Under the pieces are notes generated by a model that saw only the letters and a program-made list of their open reading frames with translations, was not told the DNA's origin and made no database searches. A program made the position numbers and the translations under genes. From a virus (taxonomy: Duplodnaviria > Caudoviricetes), in IMG/VR virus record IMGVR_UViG_3300036861_000320, positions 1-43,933 of that record: a DNA stretch of 43,933 nt; one strand, written 5' to 3'. Shown here one piece after another: positions 141 to 26,860 of the stretch (positions are counted from its first letter, which is position 1; every line of letters begins with the position of its first letter).

Positions 141-708
141 TATTAGCTGTCGGGTGACGTTCGACACCGATAGTGCCCGCCGCGTTTCCTTTGATCCCAA
201 TGTTCATTGTGGGGGATACGCCCATGAGCCCGAGAAGACCAGTCGTCAACAGAGTGACCTGGTTGGTGTTCACGCCGTTGGTGCGAAGGAAGAGGGTATG
301 ATTGGTGGAACTTCCCAACACGGCGCCCGCCGAGTCCACGTACGTGAACATCTCGACGTTGTTGGTGCTGTCTCGCAGAATAGAGGACGTTGCCCCGGCG
401 GCACTAACATACAGATTAGCCGTAAAGCTTGGAGCATCCGCTCCAGCCCCAACGTGAAGCGTGGCTTGCGGAGATGCATTACCAATCCCCACAAACCCAC
501 TGTTGAGGATACGAGCGGCTTCCGTGGCACCGTTATTGCCGACCTGGAAGATGATATCCGCGCCGGCGGCGCCGATCCCGCTAGTGCTCCGGAGACTCAG
601 GGTTGACGTGGTAGATGTGCCACCGATCACCAGAGGCGTGGTGACCGACGTGCCGACGGTCAAAGGACCGGTAAGAGACGTTGTACTAGGGAGGACGAGG
701 ATGCGCAT
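1..708 (-). CDS. Tail fibre-like virion protein, N-terminal part (continues at 43793-43374; ~375 aa in total)
   Basis: Not in ORF track because it runs off the end. ATG at 708 gives a stop-free frame MRILVLPSTTSLTGPLTVG...RILNSGFVGIGNASPQATLHVG...AQIQLMGDN that joins the MGDNVLATG ORF at the right end; G-x-V-G-I-G...P...LHV motif is typical of phage fibres. Confidence 0.75.
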   Translation of the reverse strand, partial: MRILVLPSTTSLTGPLTVGTSVTTPLVIGGTSTTSTLSLRSTSGIGAAGADIIFQVGNNGATEAARILNSGFVGIGNASPQATLHVGAGADAPSFTANLYVSAAGATSSILRDSTNNVEMFTYVDSAGAVLGSSTNHTLFLRTNGVNTNQVTLLTTGLLGLMGVSPTMNIGIKGNAAGTIGVERHPTANTAGNSLTLKSGGATSGATDKAAGALILTTGLGTGNSTPAQIQLMGDN

Positions 709-7927: not shown

Positions 7928-8102
7928 GTTGGCTTTCTAAACGCTGGTGGGGTGGGGTATAGGAGGGTTGTCGAACAGTGGGCCGGTTCTGAGCAGCGCG
8001 AATTTGGGCAAAAAGGCAAGCAGCGCAGAGGCGGAAGTCACGGAAGGAGGCGGGCATTTCGTTGAAACACGCCTTGCACTGGGGGGCTTCCCGATCAACC
8101 AT
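7920..8102 (-). CDS. Small CxxC...CxxC protein between TerL and portal
   Basis: MVDREAPQCKAC...CAAC; GGAGG RBS; overlaps both neighbours. Confidence 0.55.
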   Translation of the reverse strand: MVDREAPQCKACFNEMPASFRDFRLCAACLFAQIRAAQNRPTVRQPSYTPPHQRLESQHG

Positions 8103-9636
8103 TCTGGCCTCCATAGGAGGGCATGGGGATCGAAGCATGCTGCCGCGAACCTTGGCGCTCCCGCTTGGTGCCGAGGGCCTCGCTGGTCACAGGTTGCTCA
8201 CGGGTTACCCAGTATCCAAAGGCGTCTGAAGTATGGGTGCGGTGAAAATACGGATCGGACCGATTGTACGTCTTTTTGATGCCGCCTTTAGCATCCCGAA
8301 GCACGCCCTCAAGGTCAGCAATCAATTCCTCGCAGCTTGGATCAACCTCTACACCAATTTCACCGTACTCGTCTTTCAGGGCACGGTTCACGGCGTTCAC
8401 CCGCTCAGGTTGGCCAGGGTTGCTTACGGGGGCCTTGTACACAACCGGGACGGGATAACCCCGCATCTCAGTCCGTATTAAGTCATAATAGGATTGGGCG
8501 CTTTGACCGGAGCGGTTATTACCAGTCCCGTCCCCGTATACCCAAACTTCGGCACGGTGAGAGGGGTACTCTTGCCGAAACCAACGGGCCATATCGACAA
8601 CTGACCCTTCCTCAATAATCAGTTCTCGGTAGACGCGGAAAACACGCCCATGTCGTTGGCCAACCAGACTAACCATTGGCTCAACGTTGAAATCAAGCAT
8701 CCAGCACAGAGGCCGTCTTGGTTCCAGAGGCCCGGTGTCCCGCACATGCATGCCGTAGTTGAATGCACCGTAGGCACGGGCTCCTGACAAGCCTGGAAGT
8801 AACTCGCCATTGAGTCGTATACGTCTTTCAATAGAGCCTTCTGGGTACTTGGCCTCAAGGATCGCTACCTCCTGGGGGAGTAGGTGGGGGTTGTCGTAGA
8901 TGGAAGCTTGAAAAATGCGGCAGGTGGCGGGCTTGCCGTCTAGGACGGGCTTGGCTTTCTCGGTGTACACCCAGGTCACACCGCCAATCTGACCTTCTGG
9001 AGGAAGCAAGGTACAAGTGCCGAACACCCGGAGTCGTCTACCGGCCTCGATACGTAGCGTGGCCTCTTGGTAGATCAGTTTCGGGGGCTCTTCATCAAAG
9101 TGAATCCAGTCTTTCCCTGCTCCCTGGAAGGTCTCCCGACCGTCCGAGCAGCCCTTAAAACCAATGATCGAGCCATTCTTGAGTCGTAAAATCTTGTCAG
9201 AAACACGCCAGCCGTCACTCCCTTTGGGTATCTCCCGATCAGGAATAAACGGGGTGTGGGAGGCGCCAGCGGGGACAAAACCGTTGTCAAAATACTTGGG
9301 GGCGGTGACATCACGGTTCAGGTTGGCGGTTAGGGCGACCACCCAACCTGAGGTAGCCCGGTCAAACACCGTGCAGGAAGGGCCAATAGCAGGCTTGATT
9401 TCGCTCTCGGGCAAGCCGAATCGCGCCAATTTCGCGCCACAATAGGCCCCAACGTCGGTTTTACCGGCGCGGTTAGCCCAGAGTGCCCAGTTCTCATACC
9501 ATTCAGTGCCCATCACAGAAGCAATAAATTCAGACTGCTTCTTGTGGGGTTTCCACGTGAACAGCGGGTCGGTGGCCCGGCGCTCCTGAAAGGCTTTGGT
9601 AAGAAGATACTGGCGTTCGAGGGTGGTTCGATCCAA
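8095..9636 (-). CDS. terL: Terminase large subunit
   Basis: Walker A ANRAGKT, Walker B WIHFDEEP, DNPHL, RNase H-like nuclease motifs LDFNVEP and HTSDAFGY. Confidence 0.92.
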   Translation of the reverse strand: MDRTTLERQYLLTKAFQERRATDPLFTWKPHKKQSEFIASVMGTEWYENWALWANRAGKTDVGAYCGAKLARFGLPESEIKPAIGPSCTVFDRATSGWVVALTANLNRDVTAPKYFDNGFVPAGASHTPFIPDREIPKGSDGWRVSDKILRLKNGSIIGFKGCSDGRETFQGAGKDWIHFDEEPPKLIYQEATLRIEAGRRLRVFGTCTLLPPEGQIGGVTWVYTEKAKPVLDGKPATCRIFQASIYDNPHLLPQEVAILEAKYPEGSIERRIRLNGELLPGLSGARAYGAFNYGMHVRDTGPLEPRRPLCWMLDFNVEPMVSLVGQRHGRVFRVYRELIIEEGSVVDMARWFRQEYPSHRAEVWVYGDGTGNNRSGQSAQSYYDLIRTEMRGYPVPVVYKAPVSNPGQPERVNAVNRALKDEYGEIGVEVDPSCEELIADLEGVLRDAKGGIKKTYNRSDPYFHRTHTSDAFGYWVTREQPVTSEALGTKRERQGSRQHASIPMPSYGGQNG

Positions 9637-9740: not shown

Positions 9741-10172
9741 TTAGAGGGCTCTAAGGCGGGCGACAAGGCGTTTGGAGCGGTTACCGACCTGGCCATACCA
9801 GCGGGAGGCCACTAGGGCCGTGGCGGCCTTGTCGTAGTCCTTAGAACGGAGAAAAGAGAGGGTATTCTTGAACTTCAGGAGGCCGGTAATGCCAAGGTTG
9901 TAGGCAAGATTCGCGAGTATTTCTTGTACTTCATCGGGGAATGTAAGCCAGCCGTCAATCTCGCGCTTGCAATCGACGATGGTGCGGGCAAGATCGTAAT
10001 CAAAGAAGATATCGCACTGCTCTTGAGTAATCCTGTCACCCACATGGAGCAGGTCAGCCGGGCGAACCAGGTGGCCAACACCGACCGTAGGGAAGCCTTG
10101 CGTGTCCTTATAGACTTTCAGACGTACGCCTTCGTCTTCCTTAAGCTGTTTTCTGAGGCGTTCTAAGTCCAT
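9741..10172 (-). CDS. Endolysin, T4-type lysozyme (GH24)
   Basis: Catalytic E-x8-D-x5-T (EGVRLKVYKDTQGFPT), VGVGHL, YNLG, SRWYGQVGNRSKRL. Confidence 0.92.
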   Translation of the reverse strand: MDLERLRKQLKEDEGVRLKVYKDTQGFPTVGVGHLVRPADLLHVGDRITQEQCDIFFDYDLARTIVDCKREIDGWLTFPDEVQEILANLAYNLGITGLLKFKNTLSFLRSKDYDKAATALVASRWYGQVGNRSKRLVARLRAL

Positions 10173-10353: not shown

Positions 10354-10634
10354 AGATACTGTCCTAGTTGAGGGAATTCCAAGGAAATGTCGTTGGTGGA
10401 CTCATCAATATCTTCGCCGTCTTCCTCGTCATCTTCACACAACTCATGCTCGTTCATCTCCAGGTTGATGCCGTGGGTCAGGCGGGAAATCAGGCCAAGG
10501 CACTTCACCCGATCACCCCACCAGACGTCTTGACGGGCTGCGCCCTTGGGCGTCAGGGAAATCACACCACTGGAGCCGCGGGCGCCCAGTTCAGTCACCA
10601 ACTCGTTGGTTGTTGCACTACTCAGATCGGTCAT
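10350..10634 (-). CDS. Hypothetical protein with acidic C terminus
   Basis: 94 aa, DLSSATTNELVTEL start, operon packing. Confidence 0.55.
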   Translation of the reverse strand: MTDLSSATTNELVTELGARGSSGVISLTPKGAARQDVWWGDRVKCLGLISRLTHGINLEMNEHELCEDDEEDGEDIDESTNDISLEFPQLGQYL

Positions 10635-10803
10635 TTTTCGCTACCGGACTCGGGGCCAAGTGAGTAATAAAGGCGATCACACCAGCGATCAGGGCAGAAG
10701 TCAACGGGTTGGCCACCACAGCGTCTTGAACCACGGGAACCACGGCGGGAGCCACGGCGACCACGAACGGCAACACGGCAGGGATAAGCTTCTTCCAATC
10801 CAT
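10618..10803 (-). CDS. Holin-like small membrane protein
   Basis: GAGGAG RBS before ATG 10803; two hydrophobic segments and charged C terminus; upstream of the lysozyme. Confidence 0.55.
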   Translation of the reverse strand: MDWKKLIPAVLPFVVAVAPAVVPVVQDAVVANPLTSALIAGVIAFITHLAPSPVAKNDRSE

Positions 10804-10830
10804 ATACAACACTCCTCACAGCAAATAAGC

Positions 10831-10877
10831 GGCCAGCGATTTCTTTTTAAGTGCGCCACTGGCCGGGCTCTACACTT
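10831..10877 (-). ncRNA. Predicted H-type pseudoknot with A-rich loop
   Basis: AAGTGT/GCACTT and GGCCAGTGG/TCGCTGGCC interleave; loop AAAAAGAAA. Confidence 0.45.
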
Positions 10878-11144
10878 TGCGCCGGGCCGGGGCAGATTCC
10901 CGACATCTCTGTTTCAAGGCCACTACTCCCCAAACGGAATGACGGCACCTTACGGGGAGCGCATCACAGGCCGTCATTGCACAGCGGCCAGGGTCGGGCC
11001 GGGCTGGTACCGACCATCTCAATTTCAAAGGCGAGGTATCCCGCAGTAGCAACAGGCATCTACCATTTATGCAGACCTTACCGCCTGTGACGACCTGCGC
11101 CCAGGGTCGAACCCTTTTAGCATCTTCTCTTAGACGACCGGCAC
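10878..11144 (-). ncRNA. ~266-nt structured RNA closed by a tRNA-like acceptor stem, with two copies of a ~100-nt domain
   Basis: GTGCCGG/CCGGCGC closing stem, D-arm-like GTCT-AAGAGA-AGAT, two units CGACCCTGG...GTAAGGT...CC(T)TTGAAA-NN-GAGATG(G)TCGG; no credible ORF. Confidence 0.6.
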
Positions 11145-11146
11145 AT

Positions 11147-11223
11147 AAACCCTGGTGGGACTTGAACCCACGCCCGCTGGATCAGCATAGCGTCCACCGC
11201 TCTACCCACTGAGCTACAGGGTC
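11147..11223 (-). ncRNA. tRNA-like RNA with an 11-nt anticodon loop (no assignable anticodon, no encoded CCA)
   Basis: GACCCTG-TA-GCTC AGTGGGTA GAGC-G-GTGGA CGCTATGCTGA TCCAG-CGGGC-GTGGG TTCAAGT CCCAC-CAGGGTT-T. Confidence 0.8.
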
Positions 11224-11228
11224 AACAA

Positions 11229-11320
11229 CGCACCAGGACCGGACTCGAACCGGTAAATGCCCCCGCAGTCCGCGTGGACCAGGCCGAAGCCTGCCGCTCG
11301 ACATTGAGCTACCTGGTGCG
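11229..11320 (-). ncRNA. tRNA-like RNA whose anticodon arm is replaced by small tetraloop hairpins
   Basis: (CG)CACCAGG-TA-GCTC AATGTC GAGC-GG-CAGGC TTCG GCCTG-GTCC ACGC GGAC-TGC GGGG GCA-TTT-ACCGG TTCGAGT CCGGT-CCTGGTG(CG). Confidence 0.75.
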
Positions 11321-11325
11321 CATCT

Positions 11326-11499
11326 CTACTTACTTTTCTTACTCGACTTCTTGCCCGTAGGCTTCCAGCCGTGATCGACTGCATTCAACAGCCGCTGCTG
11401 AGCCTCGGCCTTTTCCTTGGTCGTGCCCTTGGCGTGCACGCCATTGGGGGTCTTCACCTCGTACTCACCATTCTTTTTCTTGATCACTTTGGCGGGCAT
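11326..11499 (-). CDS. Small basic hypothetical protein (57 aa)
   Basis: Below ORF-track cutoff; AAGGAG RBS; MPAKVIKKKNGEYEVKTPNGVHAKGTTKEKAEAQQRLLNAVDHGWKPTGKKSSKKSK. Confidence 0.7.
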   Translation of the reverse strand: MPAKVIKKKNGEYEVKTPNGVHAKGTTKEKAEAQQRLLNAVDHGWKPTGKKSSKKSK

Positions 11500-11538
11500 T
11501 GAAACTCCTTGGGTGGATCTCTCGTTTTGCCGTCGAGC

Positions 11539-11685
11539 CTACGCTCGCATCAGCGCGGACACGGCTATAACTTCATCTTGCCTCTGGCGGCGGAACCGGC
11601 GGTGGGCCTCACGCTTCACAAACCGCTTGCGGGCTGAACTGGCGTGGCGGCACTGGAAACAGCGGCAAAACTTATATGGATTCAC
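11539..11685 (-). CDS. Small Arg-rich protein with CRCxxC (48 aa)
   Basis: GTG start; MNPYKFCRCFQCRHASSARKRFVKREAHRRFRRQRQDEVIAVSALMRA. Confidence 0.45.
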   Translation of the reverse strand: MNPYKFCRCFQCRHASSARKRFVKREAHRRFRRQRQDEVIAVSALMRA

Positions 11686-11839
11686 AAGCCTTGCCTTTCT
11701 CTACAATTTTGTGTACGAGCGTATAGCCAAGGCCTAAGCTTCGGGCCGGACCCAGGGCGTGGCCGGCGATTTGCTACGCGCGCCCTGGTGGTGGGAGCGG
11801 AGCCAGAAGGCCAGGAACCCGTAATGCCAGGTAAATCAA

Positions 11840-12163
11840 TTACTTCAAGGGATCGCCGTTGGATGATCCATCCAAGCTAGGCTTTAAAGCTGCGATCTCG
11901 GCGGCCAGCTCGGCATCAGACATGGCATTAATGCTCATCGAGACGGACGCCTCAACCTCAAGCTTTTCATTGTAGCCACCAAGGCGTGCCACAATCGCTA
12001 AGGCCTGCGCCCACCGATCAGGGTTCTTTTCCGCCAGGAAGGCAATGGCCTGGTCGGACGGGGCGTTAATTAAAAACTTGAGCACTTGGTCTCGGAACGG
12101 CGAGCGAGAGAGATTGGCTAGTTGCTGCGCTATCGTGGCCGGGTCAATTTGCGGGGCTCCCAT
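11840..12163 (-). CDS. Putative terminase small subunit
   Basis: 107 aa helical; KLEVEA...MSDAELAAEI C-terminal pattern common in TerS; heads the late operon. Confidence 0.45.
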   Translation of the reverse strand: MGAPQIDPATIAQQLANLSRSPFRDQVLKFLINAPSDQAIAFLAEKNPDRWAQALAIVARLGGYNEKLEVEASVSMSINAMSDAELAAEIAALKPSLDGSSNGDPLK

Positions 12164-12179
12164 GAAGCATCCTAATGAG

Positions 12180-12440
12180 TTATTGAGGAGAGAATTGAGC
12201 GAGGTAAGGGTTGCGGCTGACTATCCAGTTATCGATCAACTGTGTGCTTGACATCCAGCAGCCGTTCGGGAGCTTTGCAGCAGGGAATGAATGCTTGCGC
12301 ACCCAGGAGCGTAACGTGGTGGGGTTGCAGCCCAGATAATCGCAGATGACTGGCAGACCGTATAGCAGAGTGCGGTCGTAGCGCTTGAGTGCCTGGAAGG
12401 CCTCTGTGGGTGCCTTAAGCTGGCCTTTGAGACGGGCCAT
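12180..12440 (-). CDS. Excisionase/AlpA-like winged-HTH DNA-binding protein
   Basis: ICDYLGCNPTTLRSWVRKHSFPAAKL...W....IDNWI pattern; GGAG RBS. Confidence 0.7.
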   Translation of the reverse strand: MARLKGQLKAPTEAFQALKRYDRTLLYGLPVICDYLGCNPTTLRSWVRKHSFPAAKLPNGCWMSSTQLIDNWIVSRNPYLAQFSPQ

Positions 12441-12544
12441 ACGGGCTCCAGGGGAAAAAGTGGTGAGCAGTGGACATTTGCCGTTTGCTAAGCATTACAT
12501 TAGTGAATGGTGAAATCGGTGATGGTGGTGCGAAGAAAAACTGC

Positions 12545-12667
12545 CTTACACTGAATAGGATGAATTGTATAGGGGCGTTTGTCGCACGGAGTGAATATAT
12601 TTATTTTCATTATTCAGCCTTTCATGCGACATTTACCCCCTGACAATTCATCCTTTTTATATGTATG
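12545..12667. promoter_or_regulatory. Divergent pair of TGCGACA-N11-ACAATTCAT-N9/10-TGTA(A/T)G elements
   Basis: Copy 1 at 12545-12586 (minus), copy 2 at 12625-12667 (plus), AT-rich spacer, in the gap between divergent operons. Confidence 0.7.
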
Positions 12668-12747
12668 CACGTACCACGGGAACCTCTTAGTAGAATGCAG
12701 CAGCAAGAGCCGTATACTTTGGATGTCTAAAATCGTTAGGAGGGGCG

Positions 12748-13035
12748 ATGCTGGTTTTAAGGAAAGACTTGGAATGGAACAAGCTAACACCGACTCAGAA
12801 ACGGATAGTAAGCTCGATACGAGAGCGTGAGAAACAACTAGGCGAGAACAACACTAACGCTGTTCTTAGTGATGCTCAAGCGTTGGAAATCAAACAACGA
12901 CTGTCACAAGGTGAGGAACCAATTGCAATCGCTGAGGCAATGAAAATCTCTCGTAACCTCATAGATGATATACGAGCGGGCAGGAACTGGACGCATATGT
13001 TGATTTCTGTGCCAGAAGCATTGCGAGACATATAA
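12748..13035 (+). CDS. HTH protein resembling the DNA-binding tail of phage HNH endonucleases
   Basis: GENNTNAVLSDAQALEIK...IAEAMKISRNLIDDIRAGRNWTH; AGGAGG RBS; no HNH motif. Confidence 0.7.
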   Translation: MLVLRKDLEWNKLTPTQKRIVSSIREREKQLGENNTNAVLSDAQALEIKQRLSQGEEPIAIAEAMKISRNLIDDIRAGRNWTHMLISVPEALRDI

Positions 13036-13046
13036 GGGGAAAAAGC

Positions 13047-13283
13047 ATGGCATTGCATCGCAAGACGTGCCAAGGTTGTGAATTGTGCGGTAAAGTGCGC
13101 CCGCGTGGCGTTGGTGTCGGCAACACCAAGATCAGTGACGAGCAGAAAGCCGATGTCAAACGCCGCGCGTTGGCTGGCGAGAACCAGCGGCTGCTTGGCC
13201 TGGAGTTCGGCATCAGTCGCGCACAGGTGTGCAACATCAAGCAAGACTACAAGAGCAAGCCGAATCCGCGCTGGAAAAGCTGA
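13047..13283 (+). CDS. HTH protein of the same type with N-terminal Cys cluster
   Basis: CQGCELC then RGVGVGNTKISDEQKADVK...LGLEFGISRAQVCNIK. Confidence 0.65.
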   Translation: MALHRKTCQGCELCGKVRPRGVGVGNTKISDEQKADVKRRALAGENQRLLGLEFGISRAQVCNIKQDYKSKPNPRWKS

Positions 13284-13307
13284 GCGCCCTAGCGTATAGT
13301 TTGACCC

Positions 13308-13340
13308 TGCCTCTATCCACTCGGATAGGGGCATTTTTAT
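13308..13340 (+). terminator. Intrinsic terminator
   Basis: TGCCTCTATCC-ACTC-GGATAGGGGCA followed by TTTTTAT. Confidence 0.8.
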
Positions 13341-13388
13341 TGTCTAAAGACAGGCGCACGCGAGACTTAATACCTAGGAGGCGGGAAC

Positions 13389-13586
13389 ATGACTGGCAAG
13401 GAGCTGCGGGAGCTACGGGAGGGGTGGGGATTGACGCAATCAGGTTTAGCCGATATCCTGGGACTCAAGGGTCAATCAATTTCCGATATGGAGCGAGGAA
13501 AAATGAAGATCAGTAAAAGCGTTGAGAATCATGTGCTTGCGGTCAAAAAGCTGCGGGCATTGAAAGAAATTTTAGATTCTGGCTAA
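13389..13586 (+). CDS. XRE-family HTH regulator
   Basis: LRELREGWGLTQSGLADILGLKGQSISDMERG; AGGAGG RBS. Confidence 0.88.
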   Translation: MTGKELRELREGWGLTQSGLADILGLKGQSISDMERGKMKISKSVENHVLAVKKLRALKEILDSG

Positions 13587-13593
13587 AAAGCCC

Positions 13594-13622
13594 TTGACAT
13601 AAGTTTTAACCGTAGGTACGAT
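13594..13622 (+). promoter_or_regulatory. Strong sigma70-type early promoter
   Basis: TTGACA-N17-TACGAT, upstream of the early small-ORF run. Confidence 0.8.
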
Positions 13623-13666
13623 TCTATCACGATACACGAAACGATCAAACACTGGAGGGTACGAGG

Positions 13667-13855
13667 ATGGCAGAGCGGACGCGGGCGATGGGTGAGGCGA
13701 CACAGAAGTGCCAGTGCTGCGGGGACAGGGTTTTGTCTGCCCTAGCCGTGGCCGAGTTCTGTTCTTCGGACTGCCGCACGCGGGCAGCGCAGATTGATGC
13801 TCAGTGCGCAGTGCTTTACGGTGAAGCTAAGCGTTTCCAACTGGTTCGCAACTAA
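13667..13855 (+). CDS. Small zinc-finger protein
   Basis: CQCCG...FCSSDC; GGAGG RBS. Confidence 0.6.
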   Translation: MAERTRAMGEATQKCQCCGDRVLSALAVAEFCSSDCRTRAAQIDAQCAVLYGEAKRFQLVRN

Positions 13856-13868
13856 CAAGGAGTCGGCG

Positions 13869-13979
13869 ATGAGAACGGCAATCGAGACAGCAAGACAGAC
13901 AGTGGTGGCGACTGTGTTAACAGCGGGCGTAATCGGATGGTTCAGCGCGGCGTGCAGCCTCAGCATGATGGTGTGGTAA
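13869..13979 (+). CDS. Small membrane peptide (36 aa)
   Basis: AAGGAG RBS before ATG 13869; hydrophobic segment. Confidence 0.55.
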   Translation: MRTAIETARQTVVATVLTAGVIGWFSAACSLSMMVW

Positions 13980-14017
13980 ATAACCGGGAGCCTTCGGGCT
14001 CCCTTAAGGAGCAGGCG

Positions 14018-14239
14018 ATGACAAAGTTTTCCGATTTACTCATTGGCAGTGTGTATGAGATTGACGGCGTGCGGTATGTAAAAATTACCAAGACACGTGG
14101 TTGGCTGGTGCCCACAGCCCCCGGCCAGATGGACGCAACGCACCGTGTGCCGCCGGGGACGATGGTTGAGCTGCTGGTAGCCGCCATCCCCATGCTCACC
14201 AATTACCGGGCGCAAGAGGTGGTCGGGTTCCCTGGCTAG
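14018..14239 (+). CDS. Hypothetical early protein
   Basis: AAGGAG RBS before ATG 14018; MTKFSDLLIGSVYEIDGVRYVK. Confidence 0.65.
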   Translation: MTKFSDLLIGSVYEIDGVRYVKITKTRGWLVPTAPGQMDATHRVPPGTMVELLVAAIPMLTNYRAQEVVGFPG

Positions 14240-14261
14240 CGCAGAGAGGAGCCCATACGGG

Positions 14262-14298
14262 GTTCGCCCCGCTAATGCAGTGGGGCGTGGATTGAAAC
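14262..14298 (+). CRISPR. Solitary type I-C-like CRISPR repeat (37 nt), not an array
   Basis: GTT-CGCCCCGCT-AATGC-AGTGGGGCG-TGGATTGAAAC: 9-bp stem followed by the 11-nt I-C handle; intergenic. Confidence 0.75.
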
Positions 14299-14364
14299 AT
14301 GCAGCTTGGCAATGATGGCTTGGTAAACACACGGGAGGGGCACCCCTCCCGAAGGAGCACAGCG

Positions 14365-14514
14365 ATGTACGTGATCGAGTGGAAAATGGCAAATGGGGTG
14401 TGGGCACAGCACAGCACAGGCTGGACCCAGGAAGAGGCCATGTTTATCATCTGGACGAGCGGACTGACCGGTAAGGTGTGTTTCAGGGTCGCAATCGAGA
14501 GGCGGGTTAACTAA
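14365..14514 (+). CDS. Hypothetical early protein
   Basis: AAGGAG RBS before ATG 14365. Confidence 0.6.
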   Translation: MYVIEWKMANGVWAQHSTGWTQEEAMFIIWTSGLTGKVCFRVAIERRVN

Positions 14515-14675
14515 TGTTTGAACTAGCGGTGATTAGTTTGGCAGTGGTGTTTGTCGGGTTGCCTGTGGCGTGTCTGGTGCTGGCTGTCGTAGGTGCTGCT
14601 GTGGCTGTGCCACTGGTGTGGATCGGCTGTATGCTAGCGTGTCTCTTTCCCGTAAGCCCAGAGGAGTCTGAATAA
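14514..14675 (+). CDS. Small membrane protein (53 aa)
   Basis: TAATG coupling; almost entirely hydrophobic with acidic tail. Confidence 0.6.
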   Translation: MFELAVISLAVVFVGLPVACLVLAVVGAAVAVPLVWIGCMLACLFPVSPEESE

Positions 14676-14827
14676 TGGAACTGTATACCTTAGTGCTTAA
14701 TGGCGAAGTGACCAGCGGTCTGACCCTGATCGACGCCTATGCCATCTGGAAAGTGGCCACAGGCAATGCGGCCATGATGAAGGACGAGGAGTTTAACACG
14801 ATGTACCCAGAAACTGTGGAGGCCTAG
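14675..14827 (+). CDS. Small hypothetical protein (50 aa)
   Basis: TAATG coupling, GAGGAG RBS; MELYTLVLNGEVTSG. Confidence 0.6.
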   Translation: MELYTLVLNGEVTSGLTLIDAYAIWKVATGNAAMMKDEEFNTMYPETVEA

Positions 14828-14828
14828 A

Positions 14829-15017
14829 ATGCAGCGGAAAATGGATGGTGGGGAGTTAGCGTTTTGTGGTGGTGTCGTGCACCTTGGCGAGCGGATTAAC
14901 CCAGGGCTAGGGAGTTGGATTGAGGAGTGTGTGCGCCGGGCGATGGAGGACCGTGGGTTAACATATCAACCGATTAAACATGCTAAGAAGCCGCGTGCGA
15001 AGAAAGCGAAAGTATAA
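14829..15017 (+). CDS. Hypothetical protein
   Basis: GGAGG RBS; operon packing. Confidence 0.55.
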   Translation: MQRKMDGGELAFCGGVVHLGERINPGLGSWIEECVRRAMEDRGLTYQPIKHAKKPRAKKAKV

Positions 15018-15018
15018 G

Positions 15019-15291
15019 ATGAGCATCGAGCAGGACAAGATTCGTGTCCGGAATGATCGGTTGTACTTCAATAGATTACAGGCGGCTGCTAAGCGCCTTG
15101 GATTTATAGCAGCGGAAGTAAACGAAAAGTCTGTTCTCCGGGCGCTAGGGATTCGATACATCTTGAGGGATACAGAGTTGAGCGGTGTTTACATTTGCGC
15201 TGAGTCGTTAAGCGAACTGGAGAGCGATATTGATCATCAGCGTTTTCTGTGGGAACAGGTGCATGGGCGTGCCATAGGAGAAGGTGTATGA
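15019..15291 (+). CDS. Hypothetical protein
   Basis: ATG directly after the upstream stop. Confidence 0.55.
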   Translation: MSIEQDKIRVRNDRLYFNRLQAAAKRLGFIAAEVNEKSVLRALGIRYILRDTELSGVYICAESLSELESDIDHQRFLWEQVHGRAIGEGV

Positions 15292-15355
15292 GAGATTTTT
15301 GTCACATAGTCCGGGCGCCGTGAATCGGTGAGGCCTGGATCAGGGCTCCGTGAGA

Positions 15356-15371
15356 TGTGATGTAGCGCACA
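15356..15371. promoter_or_regulatory. CRP/FNR-family-like box
   Basis: TGTGA-N6-GCACA, 9/10 match to TGTGA-N6-TCACA, intergenic upstream of an HTH gene. Confidence 0.35.
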
Positions 15372-15420
15372 ACTTTTTAGAAGGGAGGGACTGTTATCTA
15401 TGGTAGATAGGAGAGGAGAT

Positions 15421-15660
15421 ATGGAGGGGCAGACATTACGTAATGCGAGGATTCGGCTAGGCTGGACACAAGAAGAGATGGCGCAGCAACTTGGAGTCAG
15501 CGCTAGTCATCTTGCTCATTGCGAGCAAGACGAAGCGAGGATCACACCACGACTAGAAAGGCAAGTGCTTATTTTAGATCAGCTTGGTGTTGCATGCACA
15601 GCGGTCAATCGGCTTTGTGCATTAGTTGGAATACTGAGGGAACCTATCCCCAGGGGATAG
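15421..15660 (+). CDS. Second XRE-family HTH regulator
   Basis: LRNARIRLGWTQEEMAQQLGVSASHLAHCEQ; GAGGAG RBS before ATG 15421. Confidence 0.85.
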   Translation: MEGQTLRNARIRLGWTQEEMAQQLGVSASHLAHCEQDEARITPRLERQVLILDQLGVACTAVNRLCALVGILREPIPRG

Positions 15661-18352: not shown

Positions 18353-18749
18353 CTGGACCGATCAAGACTGGAGCAAACACCGGGAAGTGCTGGCTAGAAA
18401 GTATGGAGAGGACATTGCGCAGCAAGCCATCCTAGCGCTGTGGGAGCAGTTGGCAGAGGGGAAAGACATAGCACGACCGACCGAGTGGATGTCTGTTACT
18501 GCTAAGAATTTCCAGAAAATGCAGTGGAGGCACGAGAGTTGTGTGCCCATGGTGCCGCTAACCGTGGTGTTGGCGTCAGCGGATATTGAGCTGCCAGGGA
18601 GCTTGATTGATACCAATTCGCCTGAAGTGTTGGCGATTAAGGCAGAGGAGGTGCGGCAGCTAGCGGCGCTTCGAGCGCTCGACAGGCGGAAACGCTCCTA
18701 CCTACGCAAGACGGGTCAGATAGAAGCTCTACAAGCGGAGTGTGCTTAA
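18339..18749 (+). CDS. Truncated sigma70/ECF-like protein (region 2 present, region 4 HTH missing)
   Basis: EDIAQQAILALWEQ...EWMSVTAKNFQKMQWRHE matches ECF region 2; SPEVLAI...LRALDRRKR resembles the start of region 4, then the protein ends. Confidence 0.6.
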   Translation: MLANDWTDQDWSKHREVLARKYGEDIAQQAILALWEQLAEGKDIARPTEWMSVTAKNFQKMQWRHESCVPMVPLTVVLASADIELPGSLIDTNSPEVLAIKAEEVRQLAALRALDRRKRSYLRKTGQIEALQAECA

Positions 18750-19600
18750 TGGCTAAAGAATTGACCGTCGGGCACCACCTGGAGCGGTTTTACACTGAGT
18801 GGCAAATACAGGGGCGCAAGTCCATCGACACGGCCCGGAGCCATGCCAAGCCGATTGTGGAACGCTTTGGCAAAGTACCAGCCGTGACTATCAAGACCGA
18901 CGACTTACGCACGTACATTGTGCAGCGCAAGGAAGCCGGGAAGGCCAATGCCACCATCAACCGAGAGCTGGCTGTACTGAGGAGAACACTAGTGCTTGCA
19001 TACGAGTCGGGAGAGCTGGACCGAGTGCCGAAGTTTCCGAGTCTGAAGGAAGAAAACATCAGACAGGGGACGTACACGCGGGAGGAAGTGGACAGGGTCA
19101 TGACCGAGTTACCGCTGCACTTGCAGCCAGTGGTTTTATACGCTTATCTCACAGGTCGGAGAAGAGGGGAGATCTTACAGCTCAAGTGGGACGATATCGA
19201 CCTGAAAGCCAGGGTAATTACTGTGCGGCAGGACACCACTAAGACCGGGGATGTGGACCGTATTCCGCTCCAGGGGGAACTCTACAAGCTACTGCTTGAT
19301 CTCTGGGAGAGACGTAGAGAAGGTGTACCGTGGGTTTTCTCACATAACAAGGAACAGATTGGAGACTTCAACCATACGTTTGCCAGTGCAGCCAGCCGGG
19401 CCGGGCTCAAGGGGAAGCTGTTTCATGATCTTCGGCGCTCCATGGTTACCGATGCTGTTGAGGCAGGAGTTGACCCCTCTGTCGTCATGAAGATCACAGG
19501 GCACAAGACTCTAAAAACATTTATCCGATACCGAATCGTAAAAACTGAGGGGATTCGGACAGCTATGAGTACCCTTGAAGAATATAGAAAGAACAAGTAG
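18749..19600 (+). CDS. int: Tyrosine recombinase/integrase
   Basis: ATINRELAVL, TGRRRGEILQLKWDDIDL, TKTG, HDLRR, GHK, IRY catalytic residues. Confidence 0.93.
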   Translation: MAKELTVGHHLERFYTEWQIQGRKSIDTARSHAKPIVERFGKVPAVTIKTDDLRTYIVQRKEAGKANATINRELAVLRRTLVLAYESGELDRVPKFPSLKEENIRQGTYTREEVDRVMTELPLHLQPVVLYAYLTGRRRGEILQLKWDDIDLKARVITVRQDTTKTGDVDRIPLQGELYKLLLDLWERRREGVPWVFSHNKEQIGDFNHTFASAASRAGLKGKLFHDLRRSMVTDAVEAGVDPSVVMKITGHKTLKTFIRYRIVKTEGIRTAMSTLEEYRKNK

Positions 19601-23654: not shown

Positions 23655-23863
23655 TGCCTCGTTTACTCGATGGCCGGTCCTTCCACTTCGATGACTGTAT
23701 CGAGGATGGCTGTTGTGTTGAGTGTGGCGAAGCGCTGGAGTTCGATGCCGAGTTCGGCGAGGACTTGGTAGCCCTGGTCCAAGCCGAGTGTTGTAACCTG
23801 CGGTATGTATTGAAGCCCACCATGGTTGTGGTGGAGCATTGGGAGACAGGGGATGAGGGTTAG
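23654..23863 (+). CDS. Small acidic zinc-binding protein
   Basis: CCVECG...ECCNL; TGATG coupling. Confidence 0.55.
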   Translation: MPRLLDGRSFHFDDCIEDGCCVECGEALEFDAEFGEDLVALVQAECCNLRYVLKPTMVVVEHWETGDEG

Positions 23864-25682
23864 GGATCAGAAGGCTTGTGAGGGTTGTCCTTTGCGGGGC
23901 AGTGGCGAGCAAGCCTTTGTCCCCGACCAACTGAAGGAAGGCGCTCTGCTTCACCTGGTGGCTCAGACCCCCGACGAGCTGAAGCAGTCCTTCCCTAAGG
24001 TTGAGAAGCAGTATCTGCCCCTAGCCGGGGTCCGGGCCGACCAGGTCAGTTTAAGCTGTGCCGTGCGCTGCACAGCCGACCTACCCGCGCCCGTCACCCC
24101 GGCGCAGTTTGACGCCGGAAAGAGAGGAGTGCTGGAGAATGCTATTGGGTTTTGTGATCGGGCTCATAGTCGGGTTCGTGGTGGGGGGAGTCTGGGCTTG
24201 CTACAGAATTGCAAGCTTGTGATTACCCAAGGCGACCTGGCGCTCTACGCAGCTACGGGCCAGCTCCGAAGCGCCCATGAGTGGAGAGGGTACATAGTGC
24301 CCTATAAACCCCTCTCGGACTCTTGGATGAATAGTGTTTGGATGCCTGGCCAGAAGGATTTGCCGGTGTTGGTAACGTTGAGGTTAGCCGATCTGTTCGG
24401 TTTGCCTCAGCTTGCCTACCCTACAATGGCAGACTGGCGTAAGGGCCGGTGGTTTTTAGAGGGCAAATGGCCAAAGAAGCCACCAGAAGTTATTACAACC
24501 CCGGATGCTCGGATGTTCACTTCCCCGGCAGCCTGGGATACAGAGTGGAACCCCGCAACAGGGCAATTCTTACGGTTTAGTGTAGCAACAGGAGAAGGTC
24601 GGGTTTATGCCGTGGAAATGTCAGACCACATTGTGCCTAGATTGCAGTATATCTATAAACAGAAAGGCCAAGCGCTGCCGACAGTGCGCCCAGAATCTTT
24701 GGAAAACCCCCAAACCAATTTGTCAGGACTGCGGGGTGTCGTTAAAGACGCACAGTCTGAAAGTGAAGCGATGCAAGGCCTGTTACGCCAAAAGTCGGTT
24801 AGGCCGGATGGCTCTTTGTCATTCAGAGCAGGAGAACTACTGCAACGGGATGTGCAAGAAGTGTTACGAGAGCACGCCAGAACGGAAAGCCCGAGTGTCA
24901 TTTCTTCGGCGGTTAAGACGATACAACCTTGCCGAGGAGCAACTTTTAGACATGGTGGCTCGGCAGGATGGCAGGTGTGCAGTCTGCCAGAATCCGTTTG
25001 GAGAGAGAACCGGGATGATCGGGAATGTCGATCATTGCCACGAAACGGGGATGGTTCGGGGTTTGTTGTGCCACCCCTGCAATGCAGCGTTGGGGCTTCT
25101 GGGGGACAGTTTGGAGACGATCAGAGCGCTTCTGAGGTACAAAGAACGGTCGTTATCGGGCAGAACATCATTGTCGATTTGCCCAACCTCAGCCGAGTGT
25201 TCTCAGTTGGAAGCGTCATAGAAGTACATGACGGAATGTTGGCTCACAGCGTGCTCTGGAGCGATCTGCCTCATTCACTCGATTTCTTGGCAAGCATTTA
25301 TAGCCCGATTAATAGGCACAAGCATCTCTACAATAGGTCGCCTATTCAGTACGCGGGAATGGACGCCTACGTACAACTAAAAGTGTGGGAGGCTTTAGCC
25401 CAGGAGTTGGAGAAAGACCCCCAGAGCAAAGCAATCTACGAGGAAGAGATGATCCCGCTTTGGCCAATCATTCTAGAGTCCCAAGAAGCAGGCCTCAAGT
25501 TGGATCAGGACCGGGTCCGGGAGGCCCTGGAGTGGCACCAGGCGCAGCAGGAGGCGGTGGTGAAAGAGGCTCAAGCCCTTTGCGGCTACCCCATACTGCT
25601 GTCGAGTCCGGAGCAGGTGAGCACATGGCTATACGAGGTCGAGAAACTAGGGGTGAAAAGGAGGGGTAAGCGTGGCGCTTGA
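23853..25682 (+). CDS. polA: Family A DNA polymerase, N-terminal subunit: degenerate family-4 UDG-like domain, 3'-5' exonuclease with ~175-aa insertion, thumb start
   Basis: CEGCPL...CAVRC; ExoI WDTEW, ExoII GQNIIVD, HDGMLAH, ExoIII YAGMDA; GLKLD and SSPEQVSTWLY. Confidence 0.8.
   Translation: MRVRDQKACEGCPLRGSGEQAFVPDQLKEGALLHLVAQTPDELKQSFPKVEKQYLPLAGVRADQVSLSCAVRCTADLPAPVTPAQFDAGKRGVLENAIGFCDRAHSRVRGGGSLGLLQNCKLVITQGDLALYAATGQLRSAHEWRGYIVPYKPLSDSWMNSVWMPGQKDLPVLVTLRLADLFGLPQLAYPTMADWRKGRWFLEGKWPKKPPEVITTPDARMFTSPAAWDTEWNPATGQFLRFSVATGEGRVYAVEMSDHIVPRLQYIYKQKGQALPTVRPESLENPQTNLSGLRGVVKDAQSESEAMQGLLRQKSVRPDGSLSFRAGELLQRDVQEVLREHARTESPSVISSAVKTIQPCRGATFRHGGSAGWQVCSLPESVWRENRDDRECRSLPRNGDGSGFVVPPLQCSVGASGGQFGDDQSASEVQRTVVIGQNIIVDLPNLSRVFSVGSVIEVHDGMLAHSVLWSDLPHSLDFLASIYSPINRHKHLYNRSPIQYAGMDAYVQLKVWEALAQELEKDPQSKAIYEEEMIPLWPIILESQEAGLKLDQDRVREALEWHQAQQEAVVKEAQALCGYPILLSSPEQVSTWLYEVEKLGVKRRGKRGA
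24607..25221 (+). CDS. Endonuclease VII-family homing-type endonuclease with zinc-finger repeats, nested in the +1 frame of the polymerase gene
   Basis: YNL...QDGRCAVC...VDHCHETGMVRGLLCHPCNAALGLLGD; multiple CxxC; AGGAGAAGG upstream. Confidence 0.92.
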   Translation: MPWKCQTTLCLDCSISINRKAKRCRQCAQNLWKTPKPICQDCGVSLKTHSLKVKRCKACYAKSRLGRMALCHSEQENYCNGMCKKCYESTPERKARVSFLRRLRRYNLAEEQLLDMVARQDGRCAVCQNPFGERTGMIGNVDHCHETGMVRGLLCHPCNAALGLLGDSLETIRALLRYKERSLSGRTSLSICPTSAECSQLEAS

Positions 25683-25845
25683 GCGGTGCCCTGGGTGCAT
25701 GGAATGGAAAGAGTTGGGTGAATCATGTTGGTGTGAGGATTTCACGTATGCCGTCAATAGGAGAAGAAACGCTACTTCGGCTGCGTCACGAGGGTTGGGA
25801 GAGCGATCTCTTAGACCTGCGGCTTCGGTGGAAAGAGTTCGATAA
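25672..25845 (+). CDS. Small Cys-rich ORF between the two polymerase halves (57 aa)
   Basis: AAGGAGG RBS then GTG; MALERCPGCMEWKELGESCWCEDF. Confidence 0.45.
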   Translation: MALERCPGCMEWKELGESCWCEDFTYAVNRRRNATSAASRGLGERSLRPAASVERVR

Positions 25846-26860
25846 TGCCCGGAAGGTTCTGGCTCCCTTGGTTGGCCTGGAGCGGGTTTACCCTCGCTAT
25901 TTGCCAACGCAGAAATCAGGCCGCTGGTCCACGACCAAGCCCAACCTTCCGGGGTTCTCTGAGAACTGTATCAATCCTCAATGCGAGCGGGAGGATGAGC
26001 ACCGGGCCAGTAAGGGCTGCTGGAGTCTGAGGGATGTGGTTGTGCCCGATCCTGGCACGTACTTTATCAAGTGGGACTGGAGCGCGATAGAGGCCAAGCT
26101 AGCAGCGGCGTACAGTGGAGACGATGAGGACTTAGACCTGTTCGCCCGAGGTGCGGACATCCACACAGTGACGTATTGCAAGATGTACAGGTATCCGCTT
26201 CCCCCGAACCTCATGAACCCGCACACCAGTTCGGAGTGCGAAGCGTGGCGGGCTCAAGTGAACTGGCAGGGCAAGAACGGCTGGCAGCGAAGCGGGGCAA
26301 AGATCAGCAGATACAACCTGGCCTACGGGGTCGATGAGCGGTCTATCCATGCGTCCCCGGCTGCTGCGCAGTTGGCCCGTGAAGCCGGGATGGACAAGAA
26401 GCAACTGGAGGCCGTGGCCAAGGCGTACCTAGACAGTAAGCCGAAGTTGAAGGCCTGGAAGCGGAAGGTGTGGGGCCAGATTATGGCGACCCATGAAGTC
26501 CGGACACCCCTGGGGAGGAGGAAACGGTTATTTGTGACGACCGAGGAGTATACGAACTACAAGCGGACGGGCAGAGCTGGCAGCGCCTGCAAAGAAGGGT
26601 TGAACCATCTGGCTCAAGGGCAAGTGGCCGGGATGATGAATCGAACGATCATCGCCATCAAGCAGCGCTGGCCCTGTTCCAGGCTGGCCTTCCAAGCGCA
26701 CGACGGGCACTTGTCCGTCTGGCCCGAGTCCGTGAATCCCTGGCCCGAGATCAGAGAAGTAGTCGAGCGTGAATGGGACTGCGGGAATGGCCGGTCGATT
26801 AAGTCCACCGCTGACTGGGAACGGATCAACAGCGATGGAACGCATGAGGACCTACGCTAA
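25748..26860 (+). CDS. polA: Family A DNA polymerase, C-terminal polymerase subunit (alternative start TTG 25679)
   Basis: SGRWSTTKPNL, motif A WDWSAIEAKL, DIH, motif B RSGAKISRYNLAYG, TPLGRR, NHLAQG, motif C QAHDG. Confidence 0.9.
   Translation: MPSIGEETLLRLRHEGWESDLLDLRLRWKEFDNARKVLAPLVGLERVYPRYLPTQKSGRWSTTKPNLPGFSENCINPQCEREDEHRASKGCWSLRDVVVPDPGTYFIKWDWSAIEAKLAAAYSGDDEDLDLFARGADIHTVTYCKMYRYPLPPNLMNPHTSSECEAWRAQVNWQGKNGWQRSGAKISRYNLAYGVDERSIHASPAAAQLAREAGMDKKQLEAVAKAYLDSKPKLKAWKRKVWGQIMATHEVRTPLGRRKRLFVTTEEYTNYKRTGRAGSACKEGLNHLAQGQVAGMMNRTIIAIKQRWPCSRLAFQAHDGHLSVWPESVNPWPEIREVVEREWDCGNGRSIKSTADWERINSDGTHEDLR

What the first reader, a model, noticed from the sequence alone, without database searches (positions are those of the whole stretch)
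11229..11320. tRNA mimic with intact acceptor, D and T arms but no anticodon arm
Seen: canonical U8-A9, GCTC/GAGC D stem, TTCGAGT T loop and a 7-9 bp acceptor stem, but the anticodon/variable region is three short hairpins, one capped by the extra-stable cUUCGg tetraloop. The stems pair fully, which argues for maintained structure rather than decay. Inference: it cannot decode. It may be a decoy for tRNA-elbow-binding defence nucleases or toxins, an uncharged-tRNA mimic, or a processing signal. It is the first of three tRNA-like RNAs spaced only a few nucleotides apart, suggesting one co-processed ncRNA system.
Basis: partly seen in the sequence, partly recalled or inferred. Interest (0 to 1): 0.75.

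Follow-up and report, generated by a model that had tools for sequence, protein, structure and literature searches.

The report
Phage tRNA look-alike, anticodon sealed shut
A soil phage carries a tRNA-shaped gene whose codon-reading loop is predicted to be closed into a tight hairpin, so it likely cannot translate; it likely serves as a decoy for host tRNA-attacking proteins, but no relatives of it were found, so a recently broken tRNA gene is not excluded.

Summary
The element is real and lies on the minus strand (11319 to 11229) of a 44-kb soil podophage that carries an integrase. It folds as a cloverleaf with 22 of 22 Watson-Crick pairs in its acceptor, D, anticodon-position and T stems.

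An anticodon-position stem exists, but a UUCG tetraloop seals it (the 7-nt-loop register is 10.3 kcal/mol worse). The variable region is most likely one long arm, not two hairpins. The D loop lacks one G of the elbow GG, which weakens an elbow-decoy reading.

The acceptor ends in G-1:C73 (histidine type); read as 8/5 with a G discriminator it is serine-like. Neither neighbouring tRNA-like gene has a usable anticodon loop. Relatives fill this slot with normal tRNAs or with the third RNA alone, so the trio is not a fixed system.

No homologue of the element was found, so selection on it is inferred, not shown. Best reading: a maintained non-decoding tRNA mimic, akin to T5 RNA1-3 and the G-1 irregular tRNAs of Mukai et al.; recent pseudogene about 30%. 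This scan noted similar RNAs on other DNA before.

The parts
11229..11319 (-). E1, the finding: tRNA-framed RNA gene with sealed anticodon hairpin and long variable arm; no CCA encoded
11230..11319 (-). E1 acceptor helix: 11319-11312 pairs with 11237-11230; top pair G-1:C73 (7/5 reading) or first pair of an 8/5 fold with G discriminator at 11229
11296..11309 (-). E1 D arm: 4-bp stem, 6-nt loop with a single G; A15 can form the Levitt pair with the U before the T stem
   Evidence: tertiary pairing inferred from tRNA numbering
11280..11293 (-). E1 anticodon-position hairpin: 5 bp closed by a UUCG tetraloop; carries the U-UCG-G of an Arg-like loop one base short
11255..11279 (-). E1 25-nt variable region; preferred fold one 7-bp arm (11279-11259) plus a 4-nt linker
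11238..11254 (-). E1 T arm, 5 bp, canonical loop
11147..11223 (-). E2: tRNA body (Rfam 53.8 bits) with an 11-nt anticodon loop; ARAGORN's His(atg) label is an artefact of the enlarged loop
10878..11144 (-). E3: about 267-nt RNA with tRNA-like ends and two related ~120-nt modules, each ending in a T-arm-like 6-bp hairpin (11015-10997 and 10904-10886); an 81-nt compact homologue lies at L001:2379-2459
11326..11499 (-). 57-aa basic protein gene, stop codon 6 nt upstream of E1; 225 homologues, no Pfam or PHROG family, not linked to tRNAs elsewhere
11721..11760 (-). non-coding motif conserved in L001 and L002 at the head of the slot; candidate promoter or genome-end signal (function not shown)
10618..10803 (-). 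61-aa hydrophobic ORF downstream of the cluster, followed by endolysin (9741-10172) and large terminase (8095-9636)

Best explanation
This is a tRNA-derived phage RNA gene whose anticodon loop is predicted to be sealed by a UUCG tetraloop, so it likely cannot decode and likely works as a stable tRNA decoy that competes for host tRNA-targeting defence proteins. Shown: the sequence, the predicted cloverleaf, the missing 7-nt loop and the position in a slot where relatives keep tRNA genes. Inferred steps: (1) it is transcribed with the late genes, starting 6 nt after a stop codon; (2) host RNase P cuts it and its two neighbours out, likely leaving G-1 because G-1:C73 shifts the cut; (3) the 3' end is trimmed and CCA is added by the host; (4) it may be charged by a synthetase that needs little anticodon, either HisRS through G-1:C73 or SerRS through the long variable arm and a G discriminator; (5) lacking an anticodon loop, it would neither read codons nor be cut by loop-cleaving nucleases, and would bind and dilute enzymes that grip the tRNA body. 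Steps 4 and 5 are the weakest. I put 'maintained and non-decoding' (this reading plus the processing-signal rival) at about 0.6.
For: Fold and register energies. All 22 pairs of the four stems are Watson-Crick, while the three departures from a normal tRNA are length changes in loops; a toy model gives 0.07 for three, and 0.006 for six, random substitutions all missing paired positions. None of the 3 tRNA-like genes in the genome has a usable anticodon loop. E3's frame is conserved in L001: 25 of 25 and 22 of 23 bases identical, against third-codon identity of 0.51-0.64 in three shared genes, and the L001 copy also has no anticodon loop. Precedents: G-1 tRNA1 species from soil polycistrons of irregular tRNAs were charged by E. 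coli HisRS yet did not insert His (PMC5389517 section 16); HisRS accepts mini- and microhelices (PMC4357726, passages); G-1:C73 redirects RNase P (PMC5499578, passages); T5 carries annotated tRNA-like stable RNAs that fold without an anticodon loop; the AriB authors raise competition by viral tRNAs as a possibility (PMC12409363 section 20).
Against: No homologue of E1, so no covariation. The only other copy (run X2) is identical over the cluster and uninformative. A single recent loss of one loop base could give the tetraloop, since C-UUCG-G is latent in an Arg(UCG) loop. The D loop lacks one elbow G. The G-1:C73 pair would arise by chance about 1 time in 16, and C1-G72 differs from the G1-C72 of the G-1 rows seen. 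No CCA is encoded. The closest relative covering the slot lacks E1 and E2. No sigma-70-like promoter was found. The tRNA nucleases read about recognise anticodon-stem or loop sequence, which E1 has altered, and the published rescue cases work mainly by replacing a decoding tRNA.
Confidence: 0.4

Rival explanations
1. Recently disabled tRNA gene (pseudogene): an atypical phage tRNA lost one base of its anticodon loop and has not yet had time to decay.
For: Singleton, absent from the closest relative and from every collection searched. One deleted base explains the tetraloop. The same 6-nt D loop occurs in a phage tRNA-Trp with a normal anticodon arm (L128), so that lesion need not mark a mimic. 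Local duplications are common here (E2 loop, E3 modules). The slot turns over quickly.
Against: Needs a functional ancestor with a class I D arm, a 25-nt variable region and no A20 (an arginine identity element, recalled). All three genes of the cluster lose the anticodon loop while E1 and E2 keep their body stems. E3's frame is conserved without an anticodon in two phages.
Confidence: 0.3
2. Processing signal or scaffold acting in cis: the tRNA frames are kept so that RNase P and 3' trimming cut the late transcript between the upstream small gene and the lysis and terminase genes and release or stabilise E3. The anticodon is dispensable and was lost.
For: E1 starts 6 nt after a stop codon and the units are 6 and 2 nt apart. 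Acceptor and T helices, which RNase P reads, are perfect. The cluster sits inside a same-strand gene run.
Against: One frame would suffice, and L001 manages with one. A stable tetraloop and a paired variable arm are not needed for cutting. Among 160 terminase loci (74 with at least 2.2 kb upstream), default ARAGORN found tRNAs in only 5.
Confidence: 0.2
3. Atypical but working tRNA that reads CGA through a 7-nt loop opened on the ribosome, perhaps carrying His or Ser (missense, allo-tRNA-like).
For: ARAGORN finds U33, UCG and G37 in a 7-nt register. CGA is 13% of 456 Arg codons in 20 phage genes. Allo-tRNAs with long variable arms translate in E. coli (PMC5389517, passages).
Against: That register costs 10.3 kcal/mol, has one mismatch and two G-U pairs, and pair probability 0.01 or less. 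The elbow is incomplete.
Confidence: 0.07
4. Antisense regulator on a tRNA-like scaffold, in the manner of the RNase P-processed C4 and CI RNAs of phages P1 and P4 (recalled, no call).
For: The phage has an integrase. A 26-nt, 77% look-alike of E1's middle lies at 13764-13789.
Against: Longest perfect complement in the genome is 12 nt, reached by 18 of 100 shuffles. Best duplex is -53.8 kcal/mol, within the range of 12 shuffles (-46.8 to -59.3). No Rfam C4 hit. A host target was not tested.
Confidence: 0.03

Closest known systems
Phage T5 RNA1, RNA2 ('tRNA-like stable RNA with unknown functions') and RNA3 ('putative tRNA-like RNA'), NC_005859; T4 RNAC and RNAD
   Same: tRNA-framed RNAs among phage tRNA genes with the anticodon arm replaced or closed: RNA1 and RNA2 fold with extra hairpins, RNA3 with a 6-nt loop on the stem. 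Function unknown; T4 RNAC and RNAD are late RNAs of unknown function (PMC9697503, passage).
   Different: No sequence match. T5's lie among about 25 normal tRNAs, whereas this genome has no normal tRNA. E1 combines a UUCG-sealed stem, a long variable arm and G-1:C73.
G-1 'tRNA1' species in soil polycistrons of irregular tRNAs (Mukai et al., PMC5389517)
   Same: Soil origin, clusters of irregular tRNAs, G-1:C73, several without full CCA; charged by HisRS but not used for translation. One listed row has E1's D arm with the extra G and a broken anticodon stem.
   Different: The rows seen (supplement parts 23-24 of 26) keep 7-nt loops, short variable loops and G1-C72. They are linked to toxin-antitoxin loci of probable acidobacteria, not shown in a phage late operon.
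Canonical tRNA (Rfam RF00005), nearest label tRNA-Arg(UCG)
   Same: Cloverleaf, U8, A14, U54-A58, C56; 37.2 bits. The D arm type occurs in Asn, Gly, Lys, Thr, Met and His tRNAs.
   Different: No 7-nt loop in the preferred fold, one D-loop G missing, 25-nt variable region on a class I D arm.
Bacterial tRNA-Sec and allo-tRNAs
   Same: 8-bp acceptor plus 5-bp T stem, long variable arm, G at the discriminator in the 8/5 reading.
   Different: No UCA anticodon, 4-bp rather than 6-bp D stem; not 8/4 or 9/3.
YrlA (RF02553)
   Same: Weak model hit, 28.2 bits.
   Different: The hit joins E1's T arm to E2's D arm, the tandem-tRNA false positive named by Chen et al. (PMC4201824, passage). Gathering score is 69; no Ro60 gene found.

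Membership tests
canonical decoding tRNA (RF00005) | covariance score at or above gathering (29 bits) | tested here: met
   37.2 bits in E-value mode; not listed by the filtered gathering scan
canonical decoding tRNA (RF00005) | 5-bp anticodon stem with a 7-nt loop | tested here: not met
   7-nt register 10.3 kcal/mol worse, pair probability 0.01 or less
canonical decoding tRNA (RF00005) | G18-G19 in the D loop for the elbow | tested here: not met
   6-nt loop with one G; normal 7-nt form
canonical decoding tRNA (RF00005) | CCA addition, charging and ribosome use | not testable with these tools
   no CCA encoded; no RNA run listed
tRNA-His type end | G-1:C73 pair | tested here: met
   11319 pairs with 11230, probability 1.0; could be chance, about 1 in 16
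tRNA-His type end | GUG anticodon | tested here: not met
   loop is UUCG
G-1 tRNA1 of irregular polycistrons (PMC5389517) | G-1 tRNA body in a polycistron of irregular tRNAs | tested here: met
   three irregular units 6 and 2 nt apart
G-1 tRNA1 of irregular polycistrons (PMC5389517) | 7-nt anticodon loop and short variable loop as in the listed rows | tested here: not met
   compared by eye with supplement parts 23-24
G-1 tRNA1 of irregular polycistrons (PMC5389517) | neighbouring toxin-antitoxin genes | tested here: inconclusive
   no such family among 50 ORFs scanned with Pfam or 62 with PHROGs; many small ORFs have no family
G-1 tRNA1 of irregular polycistrons (PMC5389517) | histidylation by HisRS | not testable with these tools
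   needs an in vitro charging assay
bacterial tRNA-Sec | 8/5 acceptor-T helix and long variable arm | tested here: met
bacterial tRNA-Sec | UCA anticodon and 6-bp D stem with 4-nt loop | tested here: not met
allo-tRNA | 12-bp branch in 8/4 or 9/3 form | tested here: not met
   7/5 or 8/5; definition from PMC5389517 abstract
YrlA / Y RNA | model score at gathering (69) and Ro60 gene within 4 kb | tested here: not met
   28.2 bits; no Ro60/TROVE hit; known tandem-tRNA artefact
tmRNA | tRNA-like domain plus tag reading frame detected by ARAGORN or Rfam | tested here: not met
phage non-decoding tRNA-like RNAs (T5 RNA1-3 kind) | tRNA frame without an anticodon loop in a phage tRNA slot | tested here: met
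phage non-decoding tRNA-like RNAs (T5 RNA1-3 kind) | accumulates as a stable RNA | not testable with these tools
   no RNA holder listed

The most novel reading that the evidence does not exclude
A small temperate phage has converted its whole tRNA slot into three anticodon-less RNAs built on different tRNA bodies. E1 is a histidine- or serine-chargeable, nuclease-proof decoy. Together they form an RNA-only counter-defence cassette against tRNA-targeting immunity, and relatives show the path from ordinary tRNAs (L002, L003) through one mimic (L001) to three.
Probability: 0.2. Interest if true: 0.8.

Novelty: new member of a known kind. Interest (0 to 1): 0.42.

Why it matters
Phage tRNA-like RNAs of unknown function have been annotated in T5 and T4 for a long time, and tRNAs are now known as common targets of bacterial defence. 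The published escapes that I read replace a decoding tRNA. An RNA that cannot decode separates replacement from decoy action: if E1 rescues phage from a tRNA nuclease, competition is the mechanism. The slot also offers a small evolutionary series from normal tRNAs to mimics. If E1 is a fresh pseudogene, it matters little.

Tried and rejected
Homologue searches for E1, all negative.
- Exact D-arm motif in viral contigs: 24 loci, of which 1 is a tRNA frame (L128, tRNA-Trp).
- Relaxed D-arm plus T-loop pattern: 119 loci from 52 of 64 parts of the collection, 64 distinct segments, 2 called tRNA at relaxed ARAGORN (the same Trp and a doubtful Thr).
- 24-nt motif in metagenome contigs: 0. 6-nt-loop D arm plus T arm in genome contigs: 0.
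- blastn against phages and plasmids: nothing over 37% query cover.
- Terminase-anchored loci: 80 viral and 80 metagenome, with duplicates; the best 80 of 86 and of 122 were kept. Frame scanners found no E1-like gene in them.
- 31 loci of the 57-aa gene family: 0 tRNAs.
- E3 motifs and the 61-aa gene found only L001.
No covariance model was built, for lack of members.

Expression: no RNA holder listed, which is no evidence either way. Run X1 may be the source of the window. X2 differs at 7 of 1501 positions, none in the cluster.

Rejected readings: YrlA (tandem-tRNA artefact); tmRNA; ribozyme or other Rfam family in the cluster (none besides tRNA at gathering); antisense RNA to the phage's own genes; attP tRNA fragment near the integrase (no T-arm motif there); plus-strand reading (folds only as the mirror image and no program calls a gene there).

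Uninformative calls: relaxed ARAGORN with introns gave mostly noise; one search used the wrong ORF; one search used a misplaced structure string; the MAFFT alignment misaligned the 3' halves. No earlier scan note exists on this genome or sequence.

Full report
Setting. The window is a whole 43,933-base virus record, linear, with a CheckV estimate of 48% complete. It is held in two soil metagenome runs, one possibly its source. It encodes a podophage-type head, portal, terminase, endolysin, split family A polymerase, RusA and a tyrosine integrase. The finding lies on the minus strand among the late genes, between a 107-aa ORF conserved upstream of terminase in relatives and the lysis and terminase genes.

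Observation. E1 runs from 11319 to 11229. ARAGORN labels it tRNA-Arg(tcg). Rfam RF00005 gives 37.2 bits in E-value mode, but the filtered gathering scan lists only the neighbour. The fold is better than chance: z = -3.59, and a frame scanner hits 1 of 200 shuffled windows. Acceptor (8 bp), D (4), anticodon-position (5) and T (5) stems are all Watson-Crick, 22 of 22, with pair probabilities of 0.80-1.0.

There is a stem where the anticodon arm belongs; its loop is a UUCG tetraloop closed by C-G. The 7-nt register that ARAGORN uses costs 10.3 kcal/mol and has pair probabilities of 0.01 or less. The 25-nt variable region prefers one 7-bp arm (0.85-0.89) over two hairpins (0.05-0.07; 1.5 kcal/mol worse). 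The D loop has 6 nt and one G. The 7-nt form with GG is ordinary: of 58 loci fetched with that motif, 54 were called tRNAs of named amino acids, 2 undetermined and 2 not called. The 6-nt form with a T arm behind it was found in 0 genome contigs and in one phage tRNA-Trp with a normal anticodon arm. G18 and G19 build the elbow face (PMC4810234, passages), so the elbow is at best partial. U8-A14, A15-U48 and U54-A58 remain possible (inferred from tRNA numbering).

Identity. The top of the acceptor helix is G-1:C73. This pair shifts bacterial RNase P to leave an 8-bp stem (PMC5499578, passages) and is the main HisRS determinant; the anticodon counts much less and minihelices are substrates (PMC4357726, passages). 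Read instead as an 8/5 fold with a G discriminator and a long variable arm, E1 has the features named for SerRS (PMC5389517, passages). No CCA is encoded, so the sequence cannot decide between them, and G-1:C73 could be chance (about 1 in 16).

Neighbours. E2 (11223-11147) begins 6 nt after C73 of E1 and has an 11-nt anticodon loop. E3 (11144-10878) begins 2 nt after E2. It has tRNA-like ends and two related modules (local alignment score 79.5 against 48 +/- 6; 0 of 500 shuffles as high). So none of the three tRNA-like genes has a usable loop, and ARAGORN finds no other tRNA in the genome.

Relatives. L001 (terminase 86% identical) lacks E1, E2 and the 57-aa gene but holds an 81-nt form of E3 with an extended, closed anticodon arm. 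It shares 25 of 25 and 22 of 23 bases with the window where third codon positions share 0.51-0.64. By hand, 0.64 to the 25th power is about 1e-5; this points to selection on E3 or to recent exchange. L002 (72%) has normal Glu, Glu and Asp tRNAs about 40 nt after the same upstream motif. L003 (69%) has His and Glu tRNAs upstream of its terminase. Of 160 terminase loci, duplicates included, 74 reach at least 2.2 kb upstream and 5 hold a tRNA by default ARAGORN. The slot is exchangeable and the trio is not a fixed unit.

Selection on E1. No homologue was found, and X2 is identical over the cluster, so covariation could not be tested. The indirect argument is that three loop-length changes occurred with no broken pair. 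A toy model gives 0.07 for three and 0.006 for six accompanying substitutions all missing stems. Against it, the ancestor is unknown, the D-loop change exists in an apparently normal tRNA, and one lost base would create the tetraloop.

Mechanism. I commit to a processed, possibly charged, non-decoding decoy (0.4). Rivals are a recent pseudogene (0.3), a processing signal in cis (0.2), an atypical decoder (0.07) and an antisense RNA (0.03; one search found no target in the phage). The decoy step has thin support. The AriB study offers competition only as a possibility (PMC12409363, section 20 and passages). AriB and P2-OLD read anticodon-stem sequence (PMC12445682, passages). The general model is cleavage-resistant replacement (PMC10264068, passages), which E1 cannot provide.

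Comparison with what is known. E1 works like, and I file it with, the phage tRNA-like RNAs of unknown function: T5 RNA1-3 as annotated and folded here, and T4 RNAC and RNAD (PMC9697503, passage). That kind is defined by shape, not by a sequence family. The nearest experimental precedent is the G-1 tRNA1 group of soil polycistrons, charged with His but not translating (PMC5389517: section 16, passages, supplement parts 23-24 of 26). E1 is not a member, since its loop and variable region differ. It fails tests for tRNA-Sec, allo-tRNA, tmRNA and YrlA; the YrlA hit is the tandem-tRNA artefact described in PMC4201824 (passages).

Print and earlier notes. Paper searches (listings only, apart from the papers named above) showed no description of a phage tRNA-like RNA with a UUCG-sealed anticodon stem. 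Subscription journals and bioRxiv supplements were not searchable. Earlier notes of this scan describe similar RNAs on other DNA; they are unchecked leads, not support. Arginine identity at A20 and the C4 and CI RNA analogy are recalled and come from no call.

Verdict. A real, well-folded, probably non-decoding tRNA look-alike; a new member of a known but unexplained kind; interest 0.42.

Noticed in passing
window 14261-14298 (+): Single CRISPR-repeat-like hairpin (Rfam CRISPR-DR9, 28.8 bits, below gathering 45) directly before a small ORF; no second full copy among the repeats listed for 10600-15500. Candidate solitary repeat of the RNA anti-CRISPR type (PMC10651486, listing only).
   Followed up: partly
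window 10878-11144 (-): E3 holds two related ~120-nt modules; the second has complementary stretches in a-b-a'-b' order, a possible pseudoknot (seen by eye). It deserves its own study.
   Followed up: partly
L128:751-839 and 408-500 (-): Two tRNA-framed RNAs with G3-U70 and A73 (alanine-type, recalled identity) and anticodon arms extended into closed hairpins, flanking a tRNA-Trp that shares 19 bases with E1 around the D arm.
   Followed up: partly
L001:1-49 (-): Twister-P5 ribozyme above gathering score (41.1 vs 37.6), cut by the contig end; none found in the window.
   Followed up: no
L395 (Bacteroidales MAG), around 401-457 (-): tRNA frame with an 8-bp anticodon stem and 10-nt loop.
   Followed up: no
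L003:448-780: Structured non-coding stretch after tRNA-Glu (z -3.2 and -4.0 against mononucleotide shuffles).
   Followed up: no
window 11326-11499 (-): Widespread 57-aa basic protein family, 225 homologues, no Pfam or PHROG match.
   Followed up: partly
window 18740-19600 (+), 23826-26860 (+): Tyrosine integrase, and a family A DNA polymerase split over two overlapping ORFs.
   Followed up: no
window 12554-12657: 33-nt inverted repeat in the AT-rich gap where gene direction switches; possible operator or origin.
   Followed up: no
window 10878-10913: A 151-base contig in run X2 matches here with 4 differences and continues with similar sequence, hinting at an uncollected relative.
   Followed up: no
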